Shown here piece after piece: positions 196 through 37,078 of a stretch of DNA of 37,403 nt. Origin of the DNA: Candidatus Magasanikiibacteriota bacterium (lineage in GTDB: Bacteria; Patescibacteriota; Patescibacteriia; Magasanikbacterales; UBA922); assembly GCA_014729395.1 (NCBI GenBank), contig WJJZ01000009.1, positions 1 through 37,403 of the forward strand. Direction: 5' to 3'. Under the pieces are notes generated by a model, which saw only the letters and a list, made by a program, of their open reading frames with translations, made no database searches and was not told where the DNA came from. The position numbers were made by a program, and so were the translations under genes. The stretch's first letter is position 1; the number at the start of each line of letters is the position of its first letter.

Positions 196-555
196 ATGCT
201 AAAAACATTATTTATTTCATTGGCTTGTCTTGGTTTATTATTTCCATCTGTGGTTATGGGGCAAGGTCTCCGAGATGCTACCGGAAATTTGCAAGGCGTA
301 GCTCAGCAAGCCCGAGTAGATGACAAAGCTGAACTAAGTGAAGTTGTGGGTTCAATTATTAATGGCGCTCTTACACTTGTGGGACTGGTATTTTTAGTCT
401 TAATGGTCTATGCGGGCTATCTTTGGATGACCGCTCGAGGTAATGAAGAGCAAGTTGAAAAGTCTAAAAAGATTATTACCGCGTCAATAATAGGTCTTGT
501 CATAGTGGTGAGCGCATATGCTATCACTACTTTTGTCACGAGTAGGTTTCAATAA
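196..555 (+). CDS. TrbC/VirB2-like pilin
   Basis: Signal-like N-terminus; two hydrophobic helices around YAGYLWMTARGNEEQVEKSKK. Confidence 0.8.
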   Translation: MLKTLFISLACLGLLFPSVVMGQGLRDATGNLQGVAQQARVDDKAELSEVVGSIINGALTLVGLVFLVLMVYAGYLWMTARGNEEQVEKSKKIITASIIGLVIVVSAYAITTFVTSRFQ

Positions 556-630
556 TACAATAATTTAACGGCAATTATACAATAATTATTGTATAATTAT
601 AGCCAGATTATTGTTAAATTACTGTATAAT
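551..630. repeat. Inverted array of 11-bp units, gene-less copy 1
   Basis: AATAATACAAT AATTTAACGGC AATTATACAAT AATT ATTGTATAATT ATAGCCAGATT ATTGTTAAATT ACTGTATAAT; 573-598 is a perfect 26-bp palindrome. Confidence 0.9.
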
Positions 631-1038
631 ATGAAAAAAATAATAACTACATTAACTATTTTAACTTTGTTAATAATACCGGTGAGTGTATTTGCAATAG
701 ATTTGGGTACAGGTTTGACTGAAGACGCCGCTTTAAGAGCCGGATATTCCGCCGGAACAACTGAAACCACTTTTGCGGAAACTCTTGGTACGGTGGTAAA
801 AGCGGCCTTGTCTCTTGTCGGTATAATTTTTACTTTGCTTTTGGTGTATGCCGGATATCTTTGGATGACAGCGCGTGGTGAAGAGGACAAAGTGAACAAA
901 GCAACAAAGATTATCCAAGCGGCAATAGTGGGATTAATTATAACTCTGGCTGCATATAGTATAACCAACTTTGTAGTGCCAAGAGTCCTGGAAAGAACAA
1001 CCGGAAATACGGGTACAATTGGTAGCCCTGAAGATTAA
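631..1038 (+). CDS. TrbC/VirB2-like pilin
   Basis: ATG 631 (MKKIITT...VFA signal peptide); YAGYLWMTARGEEDKVNKA motif. The upstream 589 start translates repeat DNA. Confidence 0.8.
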   Translation: MKKIITTLTILTLLIIPVSVFAIDLGTGLTEDAALRAGYSAGTTETTFAETLGTVVKAALSLVGIIFTLLLVYAGYLWMTARGEEDKVNKATKIIQAAIVGLIITLAAYSITNFVVPRVLERTTGNTGTIGSPED

Positions 1039-4147: not shown

Positions 4148-4198
4148 GAGCTCGGATAAAAAAACATACGTCAATTTAACTTTAGTTAAGTAATTTTT

Positions 4199-4254
4199 AT
4201 TGTACAATTATAGTCAAATTATAGTATAATTATTGTAATTTACTGTAATTTACT
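4199..4254. repeat. 11-bp-unit array, right arm only (copy 2)
   Basis: ATTGTACAATT ATAGTCAAATT ATAGTATAATT ATTGTAATTT ACTGTAATTT ACT, then ATG 4255. Confidence 0.85.
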
Positions 4255-5310
4255 ATGAAAAAATTATTATTAATCATTATTTTTACATTCGTTTTATTAC
4301 CAAGCGCTGTTTTTGCGACGGGCGAGACTCAATTTAAGGCCAGAATAGACAATATTGGTGATGATTTTATCAGAGTAGAAAATTTGGATACAAAAAAGAA
4401 ATACACAATTGATGAATCTTTTGAGGTGGGGATGAGGCAGCAGTTAAATATAGGTGACAAAGTGCTGGTAAATGAAATAACAATGCAGGATGGGGTAAAG
4501 AGATATGTCATTACCGATATGATACGCGGCCCTTGGATTTATGTGCTTATATTTATTTTTATGCTTACGGTAGCTTTGATTGGAGGAAAGCAGGGGGTGA
4601 GGTCGCTTTTTAATTTATTTTTGACATTGACTATAATTTTATTTGTTGTCATACCGCTTGTTTTAAAGGGTTGGAATCCGATACTGGTTGTGGTTGGTGG
4701 CGGCTCTCTTGCAATGTTATTCAACATATACATCACGTACGGAATAAATAAAAAATCCCATGGGACATTAATAAGTATAATCGCCAGTTTATTTTTGGCT
4801 GCTTTGATGTCGGCTTTTTTTGTTCGATTTGCTTCTCTTACCGGGTTTGTCCAAGAGGAAGCGAGTTTTATTATCACTCTTGGTTATAGCGATTTGGATA
4901 TGAGGGGAATACTGTTGGCCGCAATTATTGTTGGTACGCTTGGTGTAATCGATGATTTGGCAATAAGTCAGATTTCATTGGTAAGGGAATTATCAAAAGC
5001 AAACAAGAAAATGACCAAGCTTGAGTTATTCCAGTCTGCGTTCAGAGTCGGGAGAGATCATACCAGTTCGATGGTTAATACTCTTGTTTTGGCTTATACC
5101 GGTGCGGCTTTTCCTTTAATGATATTATTTTCCATAGGCAACCCACCATTTGATTCCTTGGCTTCTATACTAAATAATGAAGCTGTTGCGACTGAAATTG
5201 TCCGTACTTTGGTAGGGAGTATTTGTTTGCTTTTTACAATGCCGATTGCTGCCTGGGTGGGGGCCTGGTTATTTCATAACAAAGTTGACAAAAAGACTGA
5301 AAAAGGTTAA
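4255..5310 (+). CDS. YibE/F family membrane protein
   Basis: Multi-TM; LGVIDDLAISQ, VGRDH, MVNTLVLAYTG and EIVRTLVGSI motifs. Confidence 0.9.
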   Translation: MKKLLLIIIFTFVLLPSAVFATGETQFKARIDNIGDDFIRVENLDTKKKYTIDESFEVGMRQQLNIGDKVLVNEITMQDGVKRYVITDMIRGPWIYVLIFIFMLTVALIGGKQGVRSLFNLFLTLTIILFVVIPLVLKGWNPILVVVGGGSLAMLFNIYITYGINKKSHGTLISIIASLFLAALMSAFFVRFASLTGFVQEEASFIITLGYSDLDMRGILLAAIIVGTLGVIDDLAISQISLVRELSKANKKMTKLELFQSAFRVGRDHTSSMVNTLVLAYTGAAFPLMILFSIGNPPFDSLASILNNEAVATEIVRTLVGSICLLFTMPIAAWVGAWLFHNKVDKKTEKG

Positions 5311-6868: not shown

Positions 6869-7327
6869 ATGTTTTATCTTATCCTACCCAACATCAGATC
6901 ATGTCACAATGTCGGCGCCATGTTTAGAACCGCCGATGCTTTTGGCATTAGTAGAATTTTTTTAGTAGGTTATACGGCCAGTCCGCCCAAAATTCAAATT
7001 GACAAAGTCGCGCTTGGTGCGGAAAAATGGGTACCTTGGGAAAAAAGGGAAGATTTGGCGAGTTTAATAAAAGAACTTAAAGAAAAAGGAGTAAAAATAG
7101 TAGCTTTAGAAAAAAATGATAAAAGTATTAATATTTCTTTAACAAAATTTGATGCCCCGCTTGCTTTAATAGTAGGTAATGAGGTGGAGGGGGTTGAACC
7201 GGATATATTAAAAATGTGTGATCAGATCGTGCATATTCCGATGTACGGGAAGAAGGAGAGTTTGAATGTTTCGGTTGCAGCCGGTGTGGCGATGTATGTA
7301 ATAAACAATAATTACACAATAATTTGA
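6869..7327 (+). CDS. SpoU/TrmH family RNA 2'-O-methyltransferase
   Basis: ATG 6869; NVGAMFRTADAFG, VGNEVEG and IPMYGKKESLNVSVAAG SPOUT motifs. Confidence 0.92.
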   Translation: MFYLILPNIRSCHNVGAMFRTADAFGISRIFLVGYTASPPKIQIDKVALGAEKWVPWEKREDLASLIKELKEKGVKIVALEKNDKSINISLTKFDAPLALIVGNEVEGVEPDILKMCDQIVHIPMYGKKESLNVSVAAGVAMYVINNNYTII

Positions 7328-7398
7328 CCATAATTACACAATAATTATTTTAATTATCGTCAAATCATTGTTAAATTATCATATAATTATAGTATTCT
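7300..7398. repeat. Inverted array of 11-bp units, gene-less copy 3
   Basis: AATTACACAAT AATTTGACCAT AATTACACAAT ... ATCGTCAAATC ATTGTTAAATT ATCATATAATT ATAGTATTCT; contains the upstream stop codon and ends at ATG 7399. Confidence 0.9.
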
Positions 7399-8067
7399 AT
7401 GAAAACCATAATTTTTGACATCGAAACAATTCCTGTGGATTTTGATTCCTTGGATGAAGCTCAACAATATTATTTACAAAAATATGCGGATACAGATGAA
7501 GAAAAAGAAAAAGTAAAAGATCAAATGGCTCTGTGGGCGCCGACAAATAGGATAGTGGCAATTGGAATGCTTTCGGTAGAATCTGAAAGTGGAGCGGTTT
7601 ATTTCCAGGATGGCGATAAAGAGATTGAGGATTTTGAAGATGGGGAAATTAAATATTCAGCCGGATCTGAAAAAGAAATTTTAGAAAAATTTTGGAAAGC
7701 AATTTCTTTTGCTAATAAATTTGTTACTTTCAATGGACGCGGATTTGACTGTCCGGTGCTTATGTTGCGGTCGGCTATGCTTGAAGTTAAGCCAACAAAA
7801 AATTTAATGCCGTATAGATATAGCGCGGATCAGCATGTTGATTTATTGGAACAGCTGACTTTTTATAATGCGTCCAGAAAGTTTAATTTGGATATGTATT
7901 GCAAGGCTTTTGGAATAAAATCTCCAAAGTCAGGCGGTGTTACCGGTCATGATGTGAAGCCCTTATTTCATGCCGGTGAGTATGAAAAGATAGCTAAATA
8001 TTGTGCCGGGGATTTATTTGCAACACGTGAACTCTATCTTCGCTGGGAGGAGTATATTAAGTTTTAG
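7399..8067 (+). CDS. DEDDy 3'-5' exonuclease related to the PolB exonuclease domain
   Basis: IIFDIETIP, FVTFNGRGFDCP, HVDL and YCAGD motifs. Confidence 0.85.
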   Translation: MKTIIFDIETIPVDFDSLDEAQQYYLQKYADTDEEKEKVKDQMALWAPTNRIVAIGMLSVESESGAVYFQDGDKEIEDFEDGEIKYSAGSEKEILEKFWKAISFANKFVTFNGRGFDCPVLMLRSAMLEVKPTKNLMPYRYSADQHVDLLEQLTFYNASRKFNLDMYCKAFGIKSPKSGGVTGHDVKPLFHAGEYEKIAKYCAGDLFATRELYLRWEEYIKF

Positions 8068-8115
8068 TTGAAACAATAATTCAACCATAATTATACAAAT
8101 ATTATACAATAATTT
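8068..8115. repeat. Left arm of the 11-bp-unit element, upstream of the four-helix-bundle gene
   Basis: TTGAAACAAT AATTCAACCAT AATTATACAAA TATTATACAAT AATTT. Confidence 0.88.
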
Positions 8116-8117
8116 AT

Positions 8118-8510
8118 ATGCCGGGTAAGTATATAGAATTGAAAGATTTGTTTGTTTATAAAATTTCTTTGGAATTGTGTGACATGGCTTGGGAGATTTA
8201 CCATACATTTGATTGGCAGATTAAAAAAATTATTGGTGATCAGTTTATCAGAGCAGTTGACTCAAATGCTGCCAATATAGTTGAAGGCTATGGGAGGTAT
8301 CATTATCTTGATAAAATTAAGTTCTACTATAATGCTAGGGCATCGTTAATGGAGTCAAAACATTGGTGTATTTTGTTGTCAAAAAGAAAGTTGGTCAATA
8401 AAAAAAATTATGATAATTTTTTGAAACAAATTGAACATGTTCACTACCATCTTAATAATTGGATTAACGTTACCTATAAAAATAGAGATCAGTTCGGTAG
8501 TGATAAGTAG
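8118..8510 (+). CDS. Four-helix-bundle protein (23S rRNA IVP / Avd-like family)
   Basis: DLFVY...DQFIRAVDSNAANIVEGYGR...FYYNARASLME signature. Confidence 0.92.
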   Translation: MPGKYIELKDLFVYKISLELCDMAWEIYHTFDWQIKKIIGDQFIRAVDSNAANIVEGYGRYHYLDKIKFYYNARASLMESKHWCILLSKRKLVNKKNYDNFLKQIEHVHYHLNNWINVTYKNRDQFGSDK

Positions 8511-8530
8511 AAAATAATTTATCCGTAATA

Positions 8531-8585
8531 ATTGTGCAATTATTGTGTAATTATTGTATAATTACTGTATAACTATTGTAACCCT
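8531..8585. repeat. Right arm of the 11-bp-unit element, downstream of the four-helix-bundle gene
   Basis: ATTGTGCAATT ATTGTGTAATT ATTGTATAATT ACTGTATAACT ATTGTAACCCT, then ATG 8586. Confidence 0.9.
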
Positions 8586-9284
8586 ATGCATTCTCAAGAC
8601 GTAAAATATACCCTATTTATTTTTAGGGTAGTTTATTCCAAATTACCCCCTCTTGTGCCGGAGGAAATAAGAAAAGAATTAGGCCATGCTTTGGATCACT
8701 TAAAGAGTGATTATGATATTACTTTATCGGAGGCCGAAGAAACCTTGGTTGTGTTTGGTAAAAAAATATGGCCTTTTTGGAAGGCTTTTGAGGAAATGGT
8801 AAATATGCACAAGGGAGAACTGGGGGAAAAATTTTTTATATCAAAACTTCCTCCAAAGATAAAGAAAAAATATTCGGAATTTAAAGAACATGGCGGAGAA
8901 TTTAAGGATTTTGCCACAGGTTCGCCAATGTCATTTTTTGATGATAGTGATCGGCAGTTTTTGACTTCTGTCTTATTGGAAGTTGACAAGGATATTCGCT
9001 TACACACAAGACAGGAAGTTTTGGGTATAGATAAAGATAGGTACCAGGAATTAATCGTTGAATTTGGGGAGGTTTTGGATGGTATTGAGAAAAGACTTGA
9101 AACATTAAGGACAATGGCCGATAGTGAGCAAGAGCACCCACAGCTGGCAGACGAGATTAGAGCACAGATTAAAGCGTTTGAGCATGGGATTTGCTTTTTG
9201 GCACCAAAAATAAATTTGGATGACATTAATAATTCATATGAATTTTTTGTAGAAAGAAAGCAGGAAAAAATAACTCTAAGATAG
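8586..9284 (+). CDS. Hypothetical alpha-helical protein, paralog of 9291-9962
   Basis: Long ORF in operon orientation; shares FGKKIWP and EF.E.GG...DF motifs with the next ORF. Confidence 0.85.
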   Translation: MHSQDVKYTLFIFRVVYSKLPPLVPEEIRKELGHALDHLKSDYDITLSEAEETLVVFGKKIWPFWKAFEEMVNMHKGELGEKFFISKLPPKIKKKYSEFKEHGGEFKDFATGSPMSFFDDSDRQFLTSVLLEVDKDIRLHTRQEVLGIDKDRYQELIVEFGEVLDGIEKRLETLRTMADSEQEHPQLADEIRAQIKAFEHGICFLAPKINLDDINNSYEFFVERKQEKITLR

Positions 9285-9290
9285 TGAAAT

Positions 9291-9962
9291 ATGAAGGAAA
9301 ATATATTAAATTTATTTAAAATACTTATTAATAAAAAACCGGTTGGTGTTCCGACAGAATTGTTAGAAACAGCAAACAAAAAATATCAATATTTCTTGGA
9401 TAATGATGTTTCGGATTCTGAAATAGAAAAAGAGTTGGTTGAATTTGGAAAAAAAATTTGGCCTTATTTGCAAGCTGAACAAGAATTTGTAGATAAGTAC
9501 GGTAAAGAAAAGCATAAAGATTTATTTTTGGAAAAATTGAAGCCTGAATTGAGAAAAAAATGGGAGGAATTTACTGAGCAGGGTGGTGATATACATGATT
9601 TCAGAAAGGGTGACGACTTTGAAAAAAAATTTAATGCTGATGAAAATTATGAAATAGAACAAGCTATAATAAATACAAAGCAAGAAATCCTGCAATTTAT
9701 AGAAAAATTGGCAAAGACTGAAAAAAGTGAGGAATATTTTTCTATAGTTGAAGAATATAAAGAAAGAGAAGAAAAAATTTTAAAAAAGCTTGAAGAATTG
9801 AGACAATTAAAAGAGAGAGGTGACAAGTGGGATGATGAAATTGAAGATCTGATACATTTTTTTGAGAAAGGTTTTGCCGAGTTAGAAGAAAAACCAACAC
9901 TTGAAAAAGTCCAAGCAAAAATTGACTGGTATGAAGGACAGATAAATTCAGGTAATGCTTAA
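9291..9962 (+). CDS. Hypothetical alpha-helical protein, paralog of 8586-9284
   Basis: FGKKIWP, EFTEQGGDIHDF and DEI...FEKG motifs. Confidence 0.85.
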   Translation: MKENILNLFKILINKKPVGVPTELLETANKKYQYFLDNDVSDSEIEKELVEFGKKIWPYLQAEQEFVDKYGKEKHKDLFLEKLKPELRKKWEEFTEQGGDIHDFRKGDDFEKKFNADENYEIEQAIINTKQEILQFIEKLAKTEKSEEYFSIVEEYKEREEKILKKLEELRQLKERGDKWDDEIEDLIHFFEKGFAELEEKPTLEKVQAKIDWYEGQINSGNA

Positions 9963-14970: not shown

Positions 14971-15050
14971 AAAAATTGGAGACTGGAGATTGGTGATTAG
15001 ATAAACAAAGAAATTGACTTACCAACCTCTAATCACTAGTCTCTAATTTT
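14971..15050. repeat. Inverted heptamer array (TRGAGAY type)
   Basis: TGGAGAC TGGAGAT TGGTGAT TAGATAA is inverted to ACCTCTA ATCACTA GTCTCTA; overlaps the rpiB stop. Confidence 0.8.
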
Positions 15051-17213: not shown

Positions 17214-17215
17214 AT

Positions 17216-17332
17216 AACTATACTATAATTATACAATAATTTGACGATAATTATACGATAATTTAACAATAATTATTTTTAAATTATGGTCAAATTATAT
17301 TTTAATTATTGTACAATTATTGTTAAATTTTT
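17216..17332. repeat. Inverted array of 11-bp units, gene-less copy 4
   Basis: Five left units (e.g. AATTATACAAT AATTTGACGAT AATTATACGAT AATTTAACAAT), then five right units (e.g. ATGGTCAAATT, ATTGTACAATT ATTGTTAAATT), ending 3 nt before the ATG. Confidence 0.92.
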
Positions 17333-20332
17333 ATGCCCTACAAAGCTAACAAAAATGAAAAAGAAGTCCTAAAATTTTGGGATGAAAATAAAATATTTGA
17401 AAAGTCGGTTGAATCAAAATCAAAGGATGAACCTTATGTTTTTTATGATGGGCCGCCTTTTGCTACGGGTTTGCCTCATTATGGTCATATTGTAGCTTCT
17501 CTTATAAAAGACACCGTACCAAGATTTTGGACAATGCGTGGATATAGAGTAGAGCGTGTTTGGGGTTGGGACTGTCATGGTTTGCCGATTGAAAATATTA
17601 TAGAAAAAGAGCTTGATCTCAAAACCAAGGATGATATTGAAAAATTTGGAATAGCTAAATTCAATGAAGCGGCCAGAAGTAAGGTGCTCATGTATGCGGA
17701 TGAATGGAAGAAAACCGTTCATAGAATGGGACGCTGGGTTGATATGGATAATGCCTACAAAACCATGGATATTGAATATATGGAAAGTATTTGGTGGGTA
17801 TTTAAGCAGCTTTGGGATAAAAAATTGATTTATGAAGGATATAAATCCATGCACATCTGTCCGCGCTGCGTGACGCCACTTTCAAATTTTGAAGTTACAC
17901 AGAATTATAAAGATATAAAAGATATTTCTGTTGTTGCTAAGTTCACAGTTCACAGTGGGCAGTTCACAGAAAAATTGAATTTGGATGGAAATCTATATAT
18001 TTTAGCTTGGACAACAACACCATGGACATTGCCGGGGAATGTTTTATTGGCTGTAGGAGAAGACATTGAATATTTGGTAGTAAATATTGATGGTAAAGAG
18101 GGTTCTTATATTGTTGCGAAAGATAGGGTTGAAGATATTGTGGGCGATGAGAAGTTTGAAGTAAAGAAAGAAATAAAAGGAAGTGAGTTGGTGGGTCTGG
18201 AATATGAACCACTATTTCCATATTTTGCAGATACGGAAAATGCTTTCAGAGTAGTCGCAGCTGATTTTGTGAATACTGAAGAGGGGACCGGTATTGTTCA
18301 TGTGGCACCGGCTTTTGGTCAAGACGATTATGAGCTGGGTCAGCGTGAAGAAACCGGCTGGATTCAGCACGTTACCATGGAAGGAAAATTTACAGAGGAT
18401 GTGTCAGATTTTGCCGGTCAGGAAGTGAAGCCAAAAGATGATCACAGTAAAGCGGACGTGGAGATTTTGAAATGGCTGGCGGCAAATAACAAACTTTTTT
18501 CCAAAATGAAATATGAACATAGCTATCCTCATTGTTGGCGTTGTGATACCCCGCTTCTAAATTACTCAACCGCTTCTTGGTTTGTAAAAGTAACTGATTT
18601 AAAAGAAGATCTGATTGAAAACAACAAAGAAATAACTTGGGTACCGGAACATATTAAAGAAGGTAGGTTTGGGAAGTGGCTGGAGGGAGCGAAGGATTGG
18701 GCGATTTCCAGAAATCGTTATTGGGGAACCCCGTTACCAGTTTGGCGTTGCCAAACTGAAAATCAGAAATCAGAAATCAGAAATCAGAAATTTTGTGATA
18801 ATTTGGTTATTATTGGTTCGGCGGAAGAACTTGAAAAAAGAACTAATCAAAAGGTGGATGACTTGCATAAACATATTGTTGATCAAATGGAATTTGAATG
18901 TGATAAATGCGGTGGCACTATGAAGCGTGTTCCTGAGGTGTTGGATTGTTGGTTTGAATCCGGTTCTATGCCTTATGGACAGATGCATTATCCTTTTGAC
19001 AATAAGCAAAAATTTGAAAAAGGTTTCCCGGCTGAATTTATTGCCGAAGGCCAAGATCAAACTCGAGGCTGGTTTTATACTTTGCATGTTTTGGCGACTG
19101 CCCTAACTCGTGGGAGTGAGCCGTCAATTCCTGTTGGTAGAACCACTTCTTCATTTAAAAATGTAATTGTAAACGGAATAGTATTGGCAGAAGATGGCAA
19201 GAAAATGAGTAAGAGATTACAGAATTACCCGGATCCAATGGAAGTCCTGGAAAAATATGGAGCTGATGCCATGAGATACTATCTCGTTAGCTCACCCGTG
19301 ATGCATGCCGAAAGTCTAAATTTTTCTGAAGAGGGGGTAAGGGAGGTTTATAACAAAGTTTGTAATACCTTGTGGAATGTTTTTAGTTTTTACCGTATGT
19401 TCAGTACCGATTCCACTGATTTAAAAACAGATTATGCGGATTCGGAAAATGTGCTGGATAGGTGGGTTTTGGCGAAATTAAATATTTTGATAAGAGATGT
19501 GACCAAAGGCATGGAAGAATATAAATTGGCGGAAGCCAGCCGACCTATACTTGAATTTGTTACCGAACTTTCTCAATGGTATGTAAGACGTTCGCGTGAC
19601 AGATTCAAAGGTGAAGATGAGAGAGATAAGCAAGCAGCGATTACAACTTTGCGCGAGGTTTTATTGACTCTCTCCAAAGTAATGGCGCCGTTTACCCCTT
19701 TTATGGCTGAGCAGATTTATCAGTATACAGTGGGCAGTTCACAGCCAACAGGGTTTGGTGATTCAGTACACTTGCAAGAGTGGCCGGAGGTGGACAATAG
19801 TAAGATTGATAGTAAAATTTTAAAAGATATGGAAATGGTAAGAAAAATTGTGGAGTTGGGTTTGTCTGCCAGAAAAGATGCTGGTGTAAAGGTGAGACAG
19901 CCTTTGAGTCAATTAGCAATTAACAATGAACAATTAACAAAGGATTTATTGGAGATTATTGCAGACGAACTAAACGTGAAATCCGTAGAGATGATCGACA
20001 GTGCGTCTCAGGGCAAGGACTGGGTTGAAAAAGAGGACGGTAATTTGAAGGTAGCTTTGAATGTAAAAATTGATGAAGAATTAAAGAAAGAAGGTATGGT
20101 ACGGGAGATAGTCAGGGCTATTAATTTAATCAGAAAAGAAAAAGGATATACTATTGATGATAGGATAAAGGTGAGTTATAAGACTTCTGATCCCATGCTT
20201 AGTGTGGTATTGGCTGATTTTAATGATGAAATTTGTAAAGGTGTTTTGGCTGATGAAATAATTGAAGGTGAAGGGGAAAAGGAAGTTGAAGTAAATGATA
20301 GTACTGTGAGTTTGAAAGTGGAGAGTGTTTAA
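17333..20332 (+). CDS. ileS: Isoleucine--tRNA ligase, type 2 (eukaryote/archaea-like)
   Basis: DGPPFATGLPHYGH, GWDCHGLP, WTTTPWTLP, DWAISRNRYWGTP, DQTRGWF and KMSK motifs. Confidence 0.97.
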   Translation: MPYKANKNEKEVLKFWDENKIFEKSVESKSKDEPYVFYDGPPFATGLPHYGHIVASLIKDTVPRFWTMRGYRVERVWGWDCHGLPIENIIEKELDLKTKDDIEKFGIAKFNEAARSKVLMYADEWKKTVHRMGRWVDMDNAYKTMDIEYMESIWWVFKQLWDKKLIYEGYKSMHICPRCVTPLSNFEVTQNYKDIKDISVVAKFTVHSGQFTEKLNLDGNLYILAWTTTPWTLPGNVLLAVGEDIEYLVVNIDGKEGSYIVAKDRVEDIVGDEKFEVKKEIKGSELVGLEYEPLFPYFADTENAFRVVAADFVNTEEGTGIVHVAPAFGQDDYELGQREETGWIQHVTMEGKFTEDVSDFAGQEVKPKDDHSKADVEILKWLAANNKLFSKMKYEHSYPHCWRCDTPLLNYSTASWFVKVTDLKEDLIENNKEITWVPEHIKEGRFGKWLEGAKDWAISRNRYWGTPLPVWRCQTENQKSEIRNQKFCDNLVIIGSAEELEKRTNQKVDDLHKHIVDQMEFECDKCGGTMKRVPEVLDCWFESGSMPYGQMHYPFDNKQKFEKGFPAEFIAEGQDQTRGWFYTLHVLATALTRGSEPSIPVGRTTSSFKNVIVNGIVLAEDGKKMSKRLQNYPDPMEVLEKYGADAMRYYLVSSPVMHAESLNFSEEGVREVYNKVCNTLWNVFSFYRMFSTDSTDLKTDYADSENVLDRWVLAKLNILIRDVTKGMEEYKLAEASRPILEFVTELSQWYVRRSRDRFKGEDERDKQAAITTLREVLLTLSKVMAPFTPFMAEQIYQYTVGSSQPTGFGDSVHLQEWPEVDNSKIDSKILKDMEMVRKIVELGLSARKDAGVKVRQPLSQLAINNEQLTKDLLEIIADELNVKSVEMIDSASQGKDWVEKEDGNLKVALNVKIDEELKKEGMVREIVRAINLIRKEKGYTIDDRIKVSYKTSDPMLSVVLADFNDEICKGVLADEIIEGEGEKEVEVNDSTVSLKVESV
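17940..17969 (+). repeat. In-frame heptamer tandem repeat in ileS
   Basis: AGTTCAC AGTTCAC AGTGGGC AGTTCAC AG (KFTVHSGQFT). Confidence 0.8.
18753..18790 (+). repeat. In-frame heptamer tandem repeat in ileS
   Basis: AAACTGA then four perfect AAATCAG units (QTENQKSEIRNQK). Confidence 0.92.
19405..19443 (+). repeat. In-frame nonamer-like repeat in ileS
   Basis: TACCGATTC CACTGATTT AAA AACAGATTA TGCGGATTC (TDSTDLKTDYADS). Confidence 0.55.
19721..19751 (+). repeat. In-frame heptamer tandem repeat in ileS
   Basis: CAGTATA CAGTGGG CAGTTCA CAGCCAA CAG; shares ACAGTGGGCAGTTCACAG (18 nt) with 17952-17969. Confidence 0.8.
19910..19940 (+). repeat. In-frame heptamer tandem repeat in ileS
   Basis: CAATTAG CAATTAA CAATGAA CAATTAA CAA (QLAINNEQLT). 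Confidence 0.82.
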
Positions 20333-22942: not shown

Positions 22943-24229
22943 ATGAACAGAACAAAAATAGAATTACTAGCTCCGGCAGGTAGTATTGAAAAAATGCGTT
23001 ATGCCTTTGCCTATGGTGCGGACGCGGTATATATGGGAATACCGGATTTTAGTTTACGAGTTAGGATAAATAATTTTACATTGGACACGGTAGAGCAAGC
23101 AATTAAAGAAGCACATGATCTGGGCAAGAAAATTTATGTGACGATAAATATATATGCCCACAACGAACATTTGAAAAACCTGCCTGATTATTTGAAAAAA
23201 TTAAAAAAAATGAAACCGGATGCTTTTATTATATCTGATCCCGGTGTAATGCAATTTGCCAAAAAATATGCCGGCCAAATTCCAATCCATGTATCCACAC
23301 AAGCTAATGTTACCAATTGGTCGGCTGCTAAATTTTGGCACAGCCAAGGAGTGGAGAGAGTAATACTCGGCAGGGAAGTGTCAATAGAAGAAATAAAAGA
23401 AATACATGAAAAAGTACCGGAATTGGAACTGGAGCATTTTATCCATGGCGCTATGTGTATGAGCTATTCGGGTCGTTGTATGCTTAGTTCTTGGCTTACG
23501 GGTAGGTCGGCAAACTTGGGAGATTGTGCTCAGCCCTGCCGTTGGAAGTATTCTCCACAATTAGCCGAGCACCATGTTTTAAGTGCAGAGGTGGAAGAAC
23601 CGTTGCGTCCGGGAGTTAAAATACCGGTGGAAGAAGACAAAAATGGTACCTATATTTTCAATTCCAAAGATATGTGTATGATAGAATATTTGCCGGAAAT
23701 GATAGAAACCGGTCTTGTGAGTTTTAAAATTGAGGGGAGAGCGAAAAGTCCTGCTTATTTGGCAAGTGTTGTAAAAGCATATAGACAAGCCTTTGATATG
23801 TTAGAGGGTGAAATAGACAAAAAGAAAGCCAAGAAGAAATTAAAGAAAATAAAAAAAGAAATCTTAGACAAATTGGTTCATCGAGGTTATACGACCGGCT
23901 TTGCTTTTGGTAAAGAGTCAGTAGAACAAAATATTGATAATAGCCATATTGGTGGGGAAGAGCAATTTGTGGGAGAAGTGCTGAACTGTAAAAAACATGA
24001 TAAAAACTATTTGGTTAAAATCAGACCACACAATGCTATTAAACTTGGTGATGAACTAAGAATCATGCGGCCTAAAAGTGAAGATGTTCGGTTAACTATT
24101 AAAAACATGTATAATGAGAAGGGAGAAGAGATTGAAAGCGGACACGGGGGTGCGGGGAAGAATGTTGTATTAGAGTTGGATAGAGGGGTGGAGGAGTTTG
24201 GGATTGTATTTAAGAATTTGGAATTATAA
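22943..24229 (+). CDS. Peptidase U32 family protein (TrhP/YegQ-like tRNA hydroxylation protein)
   Basis: ATG 22943; ELLAPAG, HVSTQANVTN, HGAMCMSYSGRC...CAQPCRW Fe-S motif and SFKIEGR. Confidence 0.9.
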   Translation: MNRTKIELLAPAGSIEKMRYAFAYGADAVYMGIPDFSLRVRINNFTLDTVEQAIKEAHDLGKKIYVTINIYAHNEHLKNLPDYLKKLKKMKPDAFIISDPGVMQFAKKYAGQIPIHVSTQANVTNWSAAKFWHSQGVERVILGREVSIEEIKEIHEKVPELELEHFIHGAMCMSYSGRCMLSSWLTGRSANLGDCAQPCRWKYSPQLAEHHVLSAEVEEPLRPGVKIPVEEDKNGTYIFNSKDMCMIEYLPEMIETGLVSFKIEGRAKSPAYLASVVKAYRQAFDMLEGEIDKKKAKKKLKKIKKEILDKLVHRGYTTGFAFGKESVEQNIDNSHIGGEEQFVGEVLNCKKHDKNYLVKIRPHNAIKLGDELRIMRPKSEDVRLTIKNMYNEKGEEIESGHGGAGKNVVLELDRGVEEFGIVFKNLEL

Positions 24230-24313
24230 ATTTTGAATTTTGAATCAATTTTAAATTCATTAATTAAATAATTAAGAATTCAATCAAAATTTTAAACTCA
24301 AAATTCGAAATTC
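24212..24313. repeat. Inverted heptamer array (TTGAATT/AAAATTC type)
   Basis: AAGAATT TGGAATT ATAAATT TTGAATT TTGAATC ... AAAATTT TAAACTC AAAATTC GAAATTC; contains the U32 stop and ends 5 nt before the ruvA ATG. Confidence 0.88.
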
Positions 24314-30552: not shown

Positions 30553-30608
30553 AGTACAATAATTATTGTTTAATTATAGTCAAATTATTGTATAGTTATG
30601 GTGTAATA
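30551..30608. repeat. 11-bp-unit array, mostly right arm (copy 5)
   Basis: TTAGTACAAT AATT ATTGTTTAATT ATAGTCAAATT ATTGTATAGTT ATGGTGTAATA. Confidence 0.85.
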
Positions 30609-30610
30609 CC

Positions 30611-30639
30611 TTGATTTTCTCCTTAATTTATACTACAAT
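30611..30639 (+). promoter_or_regulatory. Probable promoter for tRNA-Leu
   Basis: TTGATT-17bp-TACAAT. Confidence 0.55.
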
Positions 30640-30660
30640 GGCTTTACGCTACGGTCCTTC

Positions 30661-30885
30661 TCCGTCCAGATCTCTCACCCCTCGGGTCCGGGACAGGACT
30701 ACGCCGGGTAAATTAGTTTGGTGTATTATGCTGGAGTGGCGAAATTGGTATACGCGCGTGGCTTAGGACCACGTGGGGCAACCCGTGGGAGTTCGAGTCT
30801 CCCCTCCAGCACTCAGAAAAATTAATCGATTTCTCTTGTCCTCCGTAGCTTTATCTTGAGGCTCTGGGTGAGAGACCGGGGCGAA
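30661..30885. repeat. Degenerate inverted repeats flanking tRNA-Leu
   Basis: TCCGTCCAGATCTCTCACCC...CTACG upstream is inverted to CGTAG...GGGTGAGAGACCGGGGCGAA downstream. Confidence 0.65.
30730..30811 (+). tRNA. tRNA-Leu(TAG), CCA not encoded
   Basis: GCTGGAG...CGTGG CT TAG GA CCACG, long variable arm, GGGAG TTCGAGT CTCCC CTCCAGC A. Confidence 0.96.
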
Positions 30886-30895
30886 TAGAAAAAAC

Positions 30896-33589: not shown

Positions 33590-33618
33590 AAGCACAATTT
33601 TGTGTTTTCGTTGTACGC
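33590..33618 (+). other. 5' strand of the 23S processing stalk (pairs with 36822-36850)
   Basis: AAGCACAATTTTGTGTTTTCGTTGTACGC is nearly the reverse complement of GCGTACTACGGAAACACAAAGCTGTGCTT. Confidence 0.85.
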
Positions 33619-34231
33619 AATATAAGGGCGTACGGTGGATGCCTAGACACTAAAAGTCGATGAAGGACGTCGCAGGGTGCGATAAGCCTCGGTTAGGTCC
33701 CAAGCAACCTTTGACCCGGGGATTTCCGAATGGGGGAACCCACCTCTTTGTGAGGTACCTTATACTGAATTCATAGGTATAAGGGGTCGACCTGGCGAAG
33801 TGAAACATCTCAGTAGCCAGAGGAAAAGAAAACAAATTATGCTTCTTTTCTACACCTTGAAAGTTTTAGCTTTTAAGGTGTAGTAAAAAAAGCTGTGATT
33901 CCCTTAGTAGTGGCGAGCGAACGGGGAACAGCTCAAACCTTTATCGTGTTGTCATATTTTATTGGTCTTCGGACTTTCTAGGATATGACTTAAAGGACAG
34001 GCCGTTGCGATTTAGGTGTTGTAGGGTAAAAACGTCGGTAACCTGTTTAGCCGGATATATTATTTTATATATAATTGAAAATCTCTGGAAAGGGATACCA
34101 AAGAAGGTGATAGTCCTGTAGATAAAATATATATGATAATGTGTTGTTTTTATTCCTGAGTAGGGCGGAGCACGTGAAATTCCGTCTGAATCTGCCGCGA
34201 CTATGCGGTAAAGCTAAATACTTTTAGTGAT

Positions 34232-34268
<37 letters not shown>

Positions 34269-34830
34269 CAGCCCGGGAGGGCGATGAAATAGTATCTGAA
34301 ACCGTACGCTTACAATGAGTTGGAGCCCGCTTTTGCGGGTGACAGCGTTCCTATTGAAGAATGAGCCTGTGAGTGTGTAGTTGTTGCAAGCTTAAGAGCC
34401 TATGGTTCGAAGGCGTAGGGAAACCAAGTCTTAACCGGCGATTTAGTAATAATTACACGACCCGAAACCGAGTGAGCAATCCATGACCAGGTTGAACCCC
34501 GACGAAAGTCGGGGGGAGGACCGAACCCACGCGCCGTGCAACACGCGGGGATGAGTTGTGGATAGCGGAGAAATTCCTATCGAACTCGGTAATAGCTGGT
34601 TCTCCTCGAAATAGCTTTAGGGCTAGCTGTATGTGTTCCTGCTGGTGGTAGAGCACTGGATGAGAGCGAGGTCCCTCGGGATACTCCTTTCAATCAAACT
34701 CCGAATGCCAGTAGTCAAAACATGCAAGTCAGACTGTGGGGGCTAAGCTCCATGGTCAAAAGGGAAACAGCCCAGATCGTCAACTAAGGTCCCTAAATCA
34801 CCACTAAGTGTAAAAGGCGGTGAAGATTCT

Positions 34831-34882
<52 letters not shown>

Positions 34883-34950
34883 CAGCTCACTGGTCAAGAG
34901 TCTTTGCGCCGAAAATGTACCGGGGCTAAGTGGTGTACCGAAGTTACGAA

Positions 34951-35109
34951 TTATTGTGTCTCACTAACGTTCGACACTGAATTACGAATTAAGAATTATT
35001 AATTTTGATTCAATTTTGAATTATTTAATGATTAAACATTAGAAATTCAATCAAAATTTAAAATTTTAAATTCAAAATTTGAGTGGCGAGCGATAGCGAG
35101 ACACGATAG
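34951..35109 (+). other. Intervening sequence in 23S helix 45
   Basis: Between TACCGAAG and GGTAGAGGAGC: a stem of about 27 bp capped by an AT-rich heptamer array of about 100 nt. Confidence 0.88.
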
Positions 35110-35589
35110 TGGTAGAGGAGCATTCCTAACTGCTGTGAAGTCGGATCCGCGAGGACCGGTGGAGCGTTGGGAAGAGAGAATGCAGGCACAAGTAGCAAAA
35201 ACGAGGGTGAGAGTCCCTCGCGCCGAAAGTCCAAGGTTTCCAGGGCAACGTGAATCGTCCCTGGGTTAGTCGATCCTAAGGTGAGGCCGAAAGGCGTAGC
35301 CGATGGAAGAGCAGGTTAATATTCCTGCACTTGGCATAGTTTGTTATGATATGCGTATCTCAAAGGTGTGAGCGTTGTAAGGCTACACGTTTCGCAAGAT
35401 AGAGACCAATCCTTCGGGGGCGGTCAATTTACACTGGAGAGGTATCTAGAAAAGTATTATAACGCTAGGCTATGTCAAACCGTACCGATAACCGACACAG
35501 GTGGACAGGTCGAGAAGACCAAGGCGTACGAGAGAAACATGGTTCAGGAACTCGGCAAAACAGCGGCCGTAATTTCGAGATAAGGCCTT

Positions 35590-35708
35590 CCTCCTACGCC
35601 CTTCGTTTCACTTCGGGCTTCGGAGGACAAGTCCTTCTACTTTCAAAGAAATGTAGAATAAAAGGGACTTGTCCTCCGTAGCTCAAGCGGAGCGCAGAGC
35701 GTAGGAGG
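35590..35708 (+). other. Expanded 23S helix 63 containing a palindromic repeat
   Basis: CCTCCTACGC...GCTTCGGAGGACAAGTCC...GGACTTGTCCTCCGTAGC...GCGTAGGAGG long hairpin. Confidence 0.8.
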
Positions 35709-36434
35709 ACGCAGCTAAAGACTCCATGCGACTGTTTACCAAAAACACAGCTCCCTGCAAAAGCGCAAGCTGAAGTATAGGGGGCGATGCCTGGCCAGTG
35801 TCAGAACGTTAAGGGAGCGGGTTATTTGTCCTTGTGGCAAAGAAGCTTGCGACCGAAGCGCTGATGAACGCCGGCGGTAACTATAACCGTCCTAAGGTAG
35901 CGAAATTCCTTGTCGGGTGAGTTCCGACCCGCACGAATGGCATAACGGTGTGGAGACTGTCTTAACCATGTACTCGGCGAAAATACAAGAGTCGTGAAGA
36001 TGCGACTTACCCGCAGCTAGACGAAAAGACCCCGTGAAGCTTTACTACAACTTGACATTGGTATATTGTTTCACATGTTCAGCATAGGTGGGAGCCTTCG
36101 GGCGCCAGTGAGATACCACCCTTGTGTTGTGATATACCTAATCCAATGCCGTGAATCCGGCATGGGAGACAGTGTCTGGTGGGTAGTTTAACTGGGGCGG
36201 TTGCCTCCCAAATTGTAACGGAGGCGTTTACAAAGGTCGGCTTAGCCCGGATGGAAATCGGGCTGGACGTGCAAACGCAAAAGCCGGCTTTACTGCAAGG
36301 GCTACCACCCGCGCAGTCACGAAAGTGGAAGTTAGTGATCCGACCGTACGAAATAGGACGGCGGAAGCTCAACGGATAAAAGTTACTCCGGGGATAACAG
36401 GCTGATCACGCCCAAGCGTCCACAGCGACGGCGT

Positions 36435-36558
<124 letters not shown>

Positions 36559-36594
36559 CTATCTGCTGTGGGCGTTGAACGTTGAAGGAACTCA

Positions 36595-36636
<42 letters not shown>

Positions 36637-36680
36637 CCAGCTGTTCTGCCAAGGGCATTGCTGGGTAGCTAAGTTCGGTG

Positions 36681-36714
<34 letters not shown>

Positions 36715-36970
36715 GTTCCTAAGATTAACGTTCGTTATTAGACTCGTTCGAGACGAGGACGTTGATAGGCGCTAGGTGAAAGGTCCGCAAGGATTTTAGC
36801 CGAGGCGTACTAATATGTCGAGCGTACTACGGAAACACAAAGCTGTGCTTAAAAATAGATCGTGGCCAACAGCCGACCGCCAATTGATACTACCTACGGT
36901 TAATAAATATCCGTAATAGTGTCCGCTGGTAATTGGCAGTTGGTCTTTAAACAAAAAAAAGAAGGTCAAA

Positions 36971-37078
36971 TCTTGGTGGCTGTTGCGGTGGGGGTACACC
37001 CGTTCCCATCCCGAACACGGCAGTTAAGCCCACCAGCGCCGATGATAGCCGCAAGGCAAAAGTAGGTCGCCGCCAAGA
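36971..37078 (+). rRNA. rrf: 5S rRNA (short, about 108 nt)
   Basis: TCTTGGTGGC...CACCCGTTCCCATCCCGAACACGG.AGTTAAGC...AGTAGGTCGCCGCCAAGA. Confidence 0.97.

What the first reader, a model, noticed from the sequence alone, without database searches (positions are those of the whole stretch)
8068..8585. Candidate new element: four-helix-bundle (Avd/IVP-like) gene clasped between the two arms of an 11-bp inverted repeat array
Seen: upstream of the gene there are only left-arm units (AATTATACAAT type, 8068-8115) and downstream only right-arm units (ATTGTATAATT type, 8531-8585). The arms match at about 34 of 42 positions as inverted repeats (hand alignment). Elsewhere in the window the same arms are joined directly with no gene. 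The cassette starts right after the exonuclease stop (8067) and ends right at the next ATG (8586), so a transcript could loop the gene out and juxtapose its neighbours. Established: this protein family was first found inside hairpin-bounded 23S intervening sequences, and its homolog Avd is the nucleic-acid-binding partner of DGR reverse transcriptases; it is not a known transposase. Inference: a full/empty element pair, analogous to IS/MITE or RAYT/REP, whose only cargo is a non-catalytic nucleic-acid-binding protein that may recognise, spread or silence its cognate repeat. No RT or transposase gene is visible in this window.
Basis: partly seen in the sequence, partly recalled or inferred. Interest (0 to 1): 0.92.

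Follow-up and report, generated by a model that had tools for sequence, protein, structure and literature searches.

The report
Hairpin-clasped four-helix-bundle gene cassette

Summary
Arms 8073-8114 and 8538-8579 are 34/42 complementary and fill the spacers from the exonuclease stop (8067) to the next ATG (8586).

The gene is PF05635/TIGR02436. All six copies in this genome are flanked the same way.

Inverse flanks scoring at or above 26 (control 99th percentile 25) occur in 29 of 36 family loci and 39 of 77 loci from many phyla. The stricter criterion marks 1 of 902 control genes.

At the orthologous exonuclease/next-gene site, relatives show no array, gene-less arrays, or other four-helix-bundle genes.

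Inverted arrays number 1 per 800 kb in five genomes without the gene and 30 per 798 kb in six genomes with it.

A gene-less array of a dispersed family forms the helix-45 intervening sequence of this window's own 23S rRNA.

Best reading: an intervening-sequence-type selfish cassette living in operon spacers. Neither reverse transcriptase nor Y1 transposase is required.

RNase III excision and protein-repeat recognition are inferred only. No RNA-wobble signature was found, and no deep code links protein to repeat unit.

The parts
7399..8067 (+). Upstream host gene, a PolB-exo2-type 3'-5' exonuclease. Its stop codon abuts the left arm.
   Evidence: Pfam PF10108 at E 1e-25. The ORF was listed. 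A contig from a roughly 94%-identical relative departs from the window right after 8066.
8068..8117 (+). Left arm, about four 11-bp units of the ACAATAATTNN type (core 8073-8114).
8118..8510 (+). [quoted passage not shown]
   Evidence: PF05635 scores 76 bits (cut-off 33.8) and TIGR02436 scores 76.3 bits (cut-off 24). The AlphaFold2 model has pLDDT 94.8 and four long helices. The best PDB matches are 2gsc (TM 0.83, rmsd 0.8) and 2rld, then Avd 4dwl.
8511..8585 (+). Right arm, about five 11-bp units of the AATTATTGTNT type (array 8526-8580). It ends at the ATG of the next gene.
8586..9284 (+). Downstream host gene with no known family. It is conserved in 97 of 101 family genomes and has a tandem paralog at 9291-9962.
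7300..7398 (+). Gene-less (empty) 11-bp inverted array that fills the spacer between the SpoU methylase gene and the exonuclease gene.
   Evidence: It folds as a hairpin at -16.6 kcal/mol, z -3.3.
551..631 (+). Empty 11-bp inverted array that ends at an ATG.
   Evidence: Hairpin z -4.9.
17214..17333 (+). Empty 11-bp inverted array, the longest one, ending at an ATG.
   Evidence: Hairpin z -3.7.
4197..4255 (+). Array of right-arm-type 11-bp units only, ending at an ATG.
30555..30610 (+). Array of right-arm-type 11-bp units only.
34963..35102 (+). ORF-less intervening sequence in the helix-45 loop of the 23S rRNA gene (33611-36831). It is built of inverted GAATTTT-type heptamer arrays and belongs to a dispersed family of the genome.
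   Evidence: cmscan places a 140-nt insertion in the hairpin at model positions 1206-1226. The insert is 67-77% identical over about 105 nt to seven intergenic copies, and 95% identical over 42 nt to C1:56200-56241.

Best explanation
Window 8068-8585 is one copy of a widespread cassette that carries no transposase. The cargo is a roughly 120-130-aa PF05635/TIGR02436 four-helix-bundle gene. It is bracketed by two short arrays of tandem units in inverted orientation: 4-5 units of 11 bp here, usually 3-5 units of 7 bp elsewhere. The cassette is inserted in sense orientation exactly between one gene's stop codon and the next gene's start codon.

It is the same kind of element as the ORF-bearing intervening sequence (IVS) of 23S rRNA, but it lives in an operon spacer.

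Shown here:
- The arms are part of the element and travel with the gene.
- The site is polymorphic among relatives.
- Gene-less copies with the arms joined are dispersed, cluster near the cognate gene, and include the helix-45 IVS of this window's own 23S rRNA.
- Inverted arrays are nearly confined to genomes that carry such genes.

Inferred:
- The cassette is co-transcribed with its neighbours.
- The arms pair into a stem of about 30-40 bp that RNase III cuts, as shown experimentally for 23S IVSs. This would insulate the flanking genes.
- The four-helix-bundle protein, probably a pentameric ring, acts on the arrays in trans to maintain or spread them. The DNA-level mechanism is unknown and needs neither reverse transcriptase nor a Y1 transposase.
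For: Family membership.

Flanks of the gene:
- All 6 PF05635 hits in this genome have tandem arrays upstream, and 4 of 4 complete ones have inverse arrays downstream.
- An inverse-flank score of 26 or more occurs in 29 of 36 family loci and 39 of 77 cross-phylum loci. The control 99th percentile is 25.
- With the added periodicity criterion the counts are 23 of 36 and 25 of 77, against 1 of 902 control genes.
- A left arm's own right arm is the best match among all 113 right arms in 49 loci.
- The same design is present in RefSeq cyanobacterial plasmids, for example between cas10/cmr2 and cmr3.

Orientation: both neighbours are co-directional in 36 of 36 family loci. In cross-phylum loci the split is 58 '++' against 1 '--'.

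Mobility:
- One element with 9-mer arms meets two different upstream and two different downstream contexts. Identity starts and ends at the arms.
- The exonuclease/next-gene site in 13 relatives holds a bare promoter (6), arrays of other units (4 clear cases plus L036, not classified), or other four-helix-bundle genes with AAGATT arms (2).
- The atpD|atpC site is empty here and full in G047.
- The ybaB|recR site has three states within one genus.
- PF05635 is present in 66 of 101 family genomes, with up to 18 copies.

Co-occurrence and clustering:
- Inverted-array loci number 1 per 800 kb in 5 gene-free genomes and 30 per 798 kb in 6 gene-bearing ones. This includes two same-genus contrasts. 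G000 has 24 per 1014 kb.
- 6 of 13 loci of the 11-mer family lie on this contig, which is 3.7% of the genome (P = 3e-6).
- Thiohalocapsa shows the same local clustering.

Link to the IVS:
- (the window's own helix-45 insertion).
- The Coxiella IVS has a 28-bp stem, RNase III cuts in the stem, and tandem heptamers upstream of the S23p ORF (PMC4990558, passages read).
- An RNase III gene is present in G000.

No known mobiliser is needed: 23 of 66 gene-bearing genomes have neither an RT nor a Y1_Tnp hit.
Against: - No RNA-level signature: mismatches in 68 arm alignments are G:U-compatible on the sense strand 45 times and on the antisense strand 49 times, and 154 of 248 are transversions.
- No expression or processing data exist for this organism.
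- Arms resemble each other only when the proteins are at least 60% identical. The Mantel correlation is r = 0.06, with 38 of 999 permutations as high. A specific protein-to-unit code is therefore not shown.
- The most abundant gene-less family (GAATTTT, including the 23S IVS) has no cognate gene in this 95%-complete assembly.
- G067 has 8 genes but 0 inverted loci in the 100 kb sampled.
- The automated criteria miss about half of the cross-phylum loci.
- No target-site duplication is seen at the two-copy element.
- No gene remnants are found in the loops of empty arrays.
- Genomes compared are relatives, not independent samples.
Confidence: 0.7

Rival explanations
1. Host regulatory system. 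The four-helix-bundle protein is a DNA- or RNA-binding regulator, and the arrays are its operators in front of target genes. The gene is flanked by its own sites for autoregulation, and nothing is mobile.
For: - Arrays end 0-60 nt before start codons.
- Arrays co-occur with the gene at genome level.
- The arms have a consistent strand polarity. GC skew is +0.25 on the left and -0.29 on the right. TAG outnumbers CTA in the left arm in 71 loci against 19. This fits single-strand or sense-RNA recognition.
- The Geobacter genome paper guessed that such heptamer sets are global-regulator sites (PMC2700814, passages read).
Against: - The gene is patchy: 35 of 101 family genomes lack it, including the same-genus genome.
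- There are up to 18 diverse copies per 1 Mb genome.
- Different states occupy one orthologous site within a genus.
- An identical element appears in two contexts.
- Relatives at 46-66% identity are found in many phyla and in archaea.
- A copy sits inside 23S rRNA.
- No conserved set of downstream genes was seen.
Confidence: 0.12
2. Passenger in pre-existing hairpins. Slippage-prone inverted arrays arise on their own in spacers, for example as terminators. The four-helix-bundle gene merely targets or survives in their loops, so the arms are the target and not part of the element.
For: - Empty arrays far outnumber full ones: about 12 to 1 for the 11-mer family.
- One site can hold arrays of different units.
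- Unit sequences turn over fast relative to the protein.
- Heptamer arrays have been described without reference to this gene in Xanthomonas, Nostoc, Beggiatoaceae and Geobacter.
Against: - Inverted arrays are almost absent from genomes without the gene: 1 per 800 kb.
- The two copies of the 9-mer element share their arms exactly.
- Close protein relatives share units at different sites and in different genera.
- Bare orthologous sites have no array at all.
Confidence: 0.13
3. Chance or low-complexity artefact of an AT-rich genome.
For: The genome is 36% GC. Tandem Repeats Finder at low score lists 1134 arrays.
Against: - The flank score of this gene ranks first of 905 genes.
- The strict criterion marks 1 of 902 controls.
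- Shuffles give 0-1 loci against 11 observed.
- GC-rich hosts show GC-rich arrays of the same design.
Confidence: 0.01

Closest known systems
ORF-bearing intervening sequence (IVS) of 23S rRNA (Leptospira, Coxiella and others), which encodes the S23p/IVP protein
   Same: The same protein family sits in the loop. Terminal inverted repeats form a stem of about 28-40 bp. Tandem short units lie in the stem just upstream of the ORF: GACAGAT x3 in Coxiella, variable among strains. The element is patchy and looks selfish. This window's own 23S gene carries an ORF-less member.
   Different: This cassette lies between protein-coding genes, not in rRNA helix 25 or 45. Its unit is 11 bp. Its arms fill the spacers from stop codon to start codon. 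RNase III processing is not shown here.
Avd, the accessory protein of diversity-generating retroelements
   Same: Same fold: 4dwl_D has TM 0.74. Pfam PF05635 also recognises Avd-like proteins (PMC10053308).
   Different: The Avd equivalog model scores 18.5 bits against a cut-off of 80. No reverse transcriptase or template/variable repeats lie nearby; the only RT hit is on another contig. 33 of 66 gene-bearing genomes have no RT.
IS/MITE and RAYT/REP pairs
   Same: An autonomous-looking full form exists alongside many short gene-less forms with the same inverted ends. The copies are dispersed, intergenic and hairpin-forming.
   Different: The cargo is not a recognisable transposase. No target-site duplication is seen. 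A Y1 transposase is absent from 37 of 66 gene-bearing genomes. The ends are tandem arrays rather than a single palindrome.
Intergenic heptanucleotide tandem repeats: cyanobacterial STRR (name recalled), GGGAATC in Xanthomonas, TAACTGA in Beggiatoaceae, and the four- or five-heptamer sets of Geobacter
   Same: They are 3-6 tandem heptamers in spacers. They often occur as convergent inverted pairs (70-75 pairs in Xanthomonas). They often end just before a start codon.
   Different: In the passages I searched, those papers contain no mention of the four-helix-bundle gene. The word counts for 'four-helix' and '23S' were 0, and their supplements could not be read. Whether those arrays belong to the same system is untested.

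Membership tests
PF05635 / TIGR02436 (23S rRNA intervening-sequence protein; four helix bundle protein) | Profile score above the curated cut-off | tested here: met
   PF05635 scores 76 bits against 33.8. TIGR02436 scores 76.3 bits against 24.
PF05635 / TIGR02436 | Up-down four-helix bundle like 2gsc and 2rld | tested here: met
   The model has pLDDT 94.8 and four long helices. 2gsc_D matches at TM 0.83 and rmsd 0.8 over 111 columns. The profile hits 2gsc at E 6e-34.
PF05635 / TIGR02436 | Conserved R-x3-S-x3-N-x2-E motif on helix 2 | tested here: met
   Q42, R45, S49, N53, E56 and E79 are invariant in 34 sequences. The motif was reported as GxxRxxxSxxxNxxE in PMC3936711. The first position is Q here.
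PF05635 / TIGR02436 | Homopentameric ring | not tested
   Both PDB entries hold 5 chains. The pentamer is stated in PMC4990558, citing Lin 2006. No complex was predicted here.
DGR accessory protein Avd | Equivalog model NF033474 at or above its cut-off | tested here: not met
   18.5 bits against 80.
DGR accessory protein Avd | Adjacent reverse transcriptase with template and variable repeats | tested here: not met
   The only PF00078 hit of the genome is C11:140565-141194. None is on this contig.
23S rRNA intervening sequence | Inserted in helix 25 or 45 of 23S rRNA | tested here: not met
   The cassette lies between two protein genes. The ORF-less array at 34963-35102 does meet this feature.
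23S rRNA intervening sequence | Terminal inverted repeats that close a long stem around the ORF | tested here: met
   The arms are 42 nt at 81% complementarity. They pair in both the minimum-free-energy and the centroid fold.
23S rRNA intervening sequence | Excision by RNase III | not testable with these tools
   An RNase III gene is present at C6:273787-274182. No RNA run is available.
MITE / insertion-sequence-like transposon | Target-site duplication and a transposase | tested here: not met
   The junctions of the two-copy element show no shared flanking duplicate. The cargo has no transposase domain.
REP/RAYT | Associated Y1 (RAYT) transposase | tested here: not met
   One Y1_Tnp hit lies on contig C7, not adjacent to the cassette. 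37 of 66 gene-bearing genomes have none.

The most novel reading that the evidence does not exclude
The four-helix-bundle 'IVS protein' family is the trans-acting partner of a ubiquitous class of mobile elements that carry no transposase and whose ends are inverted arrays of tandem heptamers (here 11-mers). This one system would explain three things: the 23S rRNA intervening sequences, the insertion of these small genes inside conserved operons (ATP synthase, ybaB-recR, cas/cmr), and the long-unexplained intergenic heptanucleotide repeat arrays of cyanobacteria, Xanthomonas, Geobacter, Beggiatoaceae and CPR bacteria. Spread would be cis-preferential from the gene.
Probability: 0.4. Interest if true: 0.92.

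Novelty: new variant of a known kind. Interest (0 to 1): 0.82.

Why it matters
PF05635 is among the commonest uncharacterised small proteins of bacteria. Its relative Avd is essential to diversity-generating retroelements. The origin of 23S rRNA intervening sequences has been open since about 1990.

Four observations turn 'function unknown' into a testable model:
- The gene nearly always comes clasped by inverted tandem-repeat arrays.
- Gene-less arrays are close to absent from genomes without the gene.
- Arrays cluster near their cognate gene.
- One such array is the helix-45 intervening sequence of the same genome.

The model also offers a common explanation for scattered reports of enigmatic heptamer repeats. 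It points to a way of moving DNA, or insulating an insertion at the RNA level, that uses no recognisable transposase or reverse transcriptase.

In practice, these arrays break assemblies (as at four contig ends here) and reshape 5' leaders of essential operons.

In the six full-text searches I ran, no paper linked the gene family to flanking inverted arrays in general. The only exception is the heptamers noted inside the Coxiella intervening sequence.

Tried and rejected
Ideas dropped:
1. Five units per arm to match a pentamer. Arms hold mostly 3-5 units (counts 2:8, 3:21, 4:15, 5:8, 9:1 over 53 loci), so there is no sharp peak at five.
2. Unit lengths never being multiples of three. 9-mers occur.
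3. Right arms as extended -10 promoters. TGNTATAAT has 5 matches in the window, none of them in arrays, against 3.0 expected. Only plain TATAAT occurs in the units.
4. RNA-wobble support for a sense-strand stem. The test was negative.
5. Decayed gene remnants in the loops of empty arrays. No tblastn hit was better than E 0.14.

Methods that failed or were weak:
- My first strict array detector was too insensitive, marking 10 of 36 and 15 of 79 loci. It was replaced by the score-plus-periodicity test.
- No relatives were found in the phage collection.
- There were no PADLOC defence-family hits.
- The look-up of sequencing runs listed no RNA holder and only one DNA run, with a 0.07 share of words. 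When that run was laid, parts of 8131-8565 had no or only scrappy cover, which says nothing either way.

Closed or unavailable sources:
- PMC47033 (Ralph and McClelland 1993) is not held, so its content is known only through citing papers.
- Supplements were not opened. The supplementary figures and tables of PMC2700814 and PMC4679880 may list genes next to heptamer sets and could bear on the novelty claim.
- No structure-based complex job was sent.
Full report
**What is there.**
The window is a whole 37.4-kb contig of a 1.01-Mb, 36% GC, 17-contig genome.
- ORF 7399-8067 is a PolB-exo2-type exonuclease.
- ORF 8118-8510 is a 130-aa PF05635/TIGR02436 protein.
- ORFs 8586-9284 and 9291-9962 have no family.
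- The 50 nt between the exonuclease stop and the ATG at 8118 hold about four 11-bp units. The 75 nt between the stop at 8510 and the ATG at 8586 hold about five units of the inverse type.
- Gene-less versions lie at 551-631, 7300-7398 and 17214-17333. Right-arm-only arrays lie at 4197-4255 and 30555-30610. Each ends at or just before a start codon.
- The empty arrays fold as hairpins with z -3.3 to -4.9.
- In the fold of 8060-8595 the two arms pair across the gene in both the minimum-free-energy and the centroid structure. The total energy is unremarkable (z -0.88).

**The protein.**
- The AlphaFold2 model (34-row alignment, pLDDT 94.8) shows four long helices.
- The best PDB matches are XCC0516 (2gsc; TM 0.83, rmsd 0.8) and BT_0352 (2rld), then the DGR protein Avd (4dwl; TM 0.74, 12% identity).
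- The Avd equivalog model scores 18.5 bits against a cut-off of 80.
- Q42, R45, S49, N53, E56 and E79 are invariant in 34 family sequences.
- There is no PADLOC hit.

**Every copy of the gene in this genome is clasped.**
- PF05635 hits six places: four complete genes and two identical 5' fragments at contig ends.
- All six have tandem short-unit arrays just upstream, and the four complete ones have the inverse arrays downstream. Each copy has its own unit: the 11-mer here, then ATCATAA, GAGATT-type, ATTTTGC-type and 9-mers of the AAAGGCCTG type.
- Among 905 ORF-called genes, the two best inverse-flank scores belong to four-helix-bundle genes (44 and 41; median 14; 99th percentile 25).

**The arms travel with the gene.**
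- The 3' ends of contigs C1 and C16 share their last 141 nt: left arm plus gene start. They follow different genes, a murB-like gene and atpA.
- The 5' ends of C10 and C16 share their first 141 nt: gene end plus right arm. C10 then continues with atpG.
- The 141 nt is the assembler's overlap, so identity begins exactly at the first unit and ends at the last.
- One element therefore stands in at least two contexts in the genome or its population.
- No target-site duplication is visible.

**Relatives.**
- The downstream gene is found in 97 of 101 genomes of the taxonomic family.
- In 13 of the 29 relatives' loci fetched, the exonuclease gene lies directly upstream.
- Six of those have an 18-50-bp spacer holding only a TGnTATAAT-like box before the ATG.
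- Four hold arrays of other units without a gene: CAGAATA, an 11-bp-like unit, AATGTCT, and a direct GGTTAAA set. L036 I did not classify.
- Two (G076, G023) hold four-helix-bundle genes with AAGATT arms. Their proteins are 27-29% identical to the window's but close to this genome's GAGATT-armed paralog.
- PF05635 is present in 66 of 101 family genomes, with up to 18 copies per roughly 1 Mb. It is absent from the only other genome of the genus.
- The atpD|atpC spacer holds an empty 9-mer array here and a 9-mer-armed gene in G047.
- Within one genus (RecR 87-94% identical), the ybaB|recR spacer holds a gene with AGCCAAT arms, a gene with AGTTCTT arms, or unrelated hairpins.
- A metagenome contig about 94% identical over the exonuclease gene departs from the window directly after 8066 and continues with a TGGTATAAT-bearing sequence.

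**How general, with controls.**
- The inverse-flank score is a Smith-Waterman alignment of the 90 nt upstream against the reverse complement of the 90 nt downstream. It reaches 26 or more in 29 of 36 family loci and in 39 of 77 loci found across phyla.
- With an added periodicity criterion the counts are 23 of 36 and 25 of 77, against 1 of 902 control genes.
- The 77 loci come from other CPR lineages, Bacteroidota, Acidobacteriota, Elusimicrobiota, Lentisphaerota, Gammaproteobacteria, Clostridia, Planctomycetota, Chlorobi, Verrucomicrobiota, Ignavibacteria and Methanophagales archaea. Their units match host composition.
- Several misses are start-codon miscalls or arms lying further out, so these counts are lower bounds. 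The automated test still leaves about half of the cross-phylum loci unscored.
- Own arms match each other (median 28) far better than arms of other loci (median 14). In 49 of 113 loci the own partner is the best of all 113.
- Arms are 23-33 nt long (interquartile range) and 88% complementary. The period is 7 or 14 in 49 of 68 loci, 8 in 14, 9 in 4 and 11 in 1, the last being the window.
- Annotated RefSeq plasmids of Nostoc punctiforme, Picosynechococcus PCC 7003 (between cas10/cmr2 and cmr3) and Anabaena sp. 90 (between cas6 and cas4) show the same clasp. Nostoc PCC 7120 pAlpha shows an array on one side only.

**Orientation and polarity.**
- Both neighbours are co-directional with the gene in 36 of 36 family loci. 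In cross-phylum loci the split is 58 '++', 8 '+-', 5 '-+' and 1 '--'.
- Each spacer is about 43-51 nt.
- On the sense strand, left arms are G-rich and TAG-rich and right arms are C-rich and CTA-rich. GC skew is +0.25 against -0.29, with left greater than right in 94 of 115 loci. TAG outnumbers CTA in left arms in 71 loci against 19.
- Stop codons in all three frames occur in 72 of 115 left arms, 30 of 115 right arms and 400 of 906 control upstream regions.
- This polarity cannot come from pairing alone and remains unexplained.

**Arrays go with the gene at genome level.**
- The detector required Tandem Repeats Finder period 7-11, at least 2.5 copies, and an inverse partner within 700 bp.
- Five genomes without PF05635 gave 0, 1, 0, 0 and 0 inverted-array loci in 800 kb. 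The single locus is A/T-rich.
- Six genomes with the gene gave 10, 13, 0, 1, 4 and 2 loci in 798 kb. This genome has 24 in 1014 kb.
- Tandem arrays of period 7-11 number 77 against 307.
- Two contrasts are within a genus: G000 against G017, and G060 against G009.
- The 11-mer family has about 13 loci, 6 of them on this contig, which is 3.7% of the genome (P = 3e-6).
- The 9-mers cluster in the atp operon beside their gene.
- In Thiohalocapsa halophila, arrays of the gene's unit occupy about 8 sites, 6 of them on the gene's own 51-kb contig. The control pattern has 0 hits.

**Link to rRNA intervening sequences.**
- The window holds a 23S rRNA gene (33611-36831).
- A 140-nt ORF-less insertion (34963-35102) sits in the hairpin loop at model positions 1206-1226. 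I take this to be helix 45 from recalled E. coli numbering.
- The insertion consists of inverted GAATTTT-type heptamers. It is 67-77% identical over about 105 nt to seven intergenic copies, and 95% identical over 42 nt to one of them.
- A relative (G088) has a four-helix-bundle gene with GGAATTT arms.
- From passages read in PMC4990558: the Coxiella IVS has a 28-bp terminal stem, is cut in that stem by RNase III, and carries tandem GACAGAT heptamers of strain-variable number just upstream of its S23p ORF.
- This genome has an RNase III gene.

**What is not needed, and what was not found.**
- RT hits occur in 33 of 66 gene-bearing and 6 of 35 gene-free genomes.
- Y1 transposase hits occur in 29 of 66 gene-bearing and 4 of 35 gene-free genomes.
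- 23 gene-bearing genomes have neither, including G012 (99% complete, 12 copies, 5 inverted loci per 100 kb).
- Arm mismatches show no sense-strand G:U excess (45 against 49).
- Left-arm similarity rises only for protein pairs at 60% identity or more (mean score 21-26 against about 13). The Mantel correlation is r = 0.06, with 38 of 999 permutations as high. By eye, the clades of a 36-protein tree do share unit cores.

**Reading.**
It is best filed with the ORF-bearing 23S IVS and differs from it by living in mRNA spacers.
- Shown: anatomy, generality, site polymorphism, co-occurrence, clustering, and the rRNA member.
- Inferred: co-transcription, stem formation, RNase III insulation, and a trans role of the protein.
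- Unknown: how the DNA moves, why the ends are tandem arrays, and why the arms have a fixed strand polarity.

**Literature.**
- Six full-text searches returned no paper that links PF05635 genes to flanking inverted arrays in general.
- PMC3936711 notes such genes inside cas operons.
- A 2024 preprint and its published version, PMC11270868, find them in CPR rRNA insertions.
- PMC4692102, PMC4679880 and PMC2700814 describe heptamer arrays. In the passages searched they do not mention the gene.
- Supplements were not read.

Noticed in passing
window 33611-36831: The 23S rRNA gene is 3221 nt against a 2925-position model. Besides the helix-45 insertion it has further insertions of about 58, 57 and 21 nt in the 5' domain. 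A 5S rRNA follows at 36972-37078.
   Followed up: partly
window 30620-30890: The tRNA at 30730-30811 is embedded in GC-rich flanks that look mutually complementary (ctctcaccc... / ...gggtgagag). A right-arm-type 11-bp array lies just upstream.
   Followed up: no
window 8586-9284 and 9291-9962: These are tandem paralogs (31% identical) with no Pfam or NCBIfam family. The first is conserved in 97 of 101 genomes of the taxonomic family.
   Followed up: partly
L011, L012, L015, L021 (relatives' exonuclease/next-gene spacers): Spacers of 18-48 bp hold a TGnTATAAT-like box 8-25 nt before the ATG and no Shine-Dalgarno-like sequence. This suggests very short or absent leaders in this lineage.
   Followed up: no
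window 14975-14998, 17940-17969, 18760-18791, 19910-19940, 24214-24245: Solo tandem heptamer arrays without an inverse partner nearby: ATTGGAG, AGTTCAC, a perfect AAATCAG x4.6, CAATTAA and GAATTTT. Two of them share units with four-helix-bundle gene arms elsewhere in the genome.
   Followed up: partly
G000 C1 and C6, first about 130 nt: The two contigs begin with the same sequence except for one difference, which points to another repeated element that breaks the assembly.
   Followed up: no
G000 C7:320-661 and C11:140565-141194: The genome's single Y1 transposase hit lies on a 2.7-kb contig. Its single reverse-transcriptase hit is a 422-codon open frame. The types of both were not determined.
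   Followed up: no
G040 (relative), many contig ends: There are 27 Y1_Tnp fragments, mostly at contig ends, which suggests a recent IS200/IS605-like expansion in that genome.
   Followed up: no
L089, L092, L093, L102, L140 (cross-phylum loci): Some hosts carry very long arrays (up to about 10 units). Some carry two different unit families stacked next to one gene, or arrays that look direct rather than inverted (L069).
   Followed up: no
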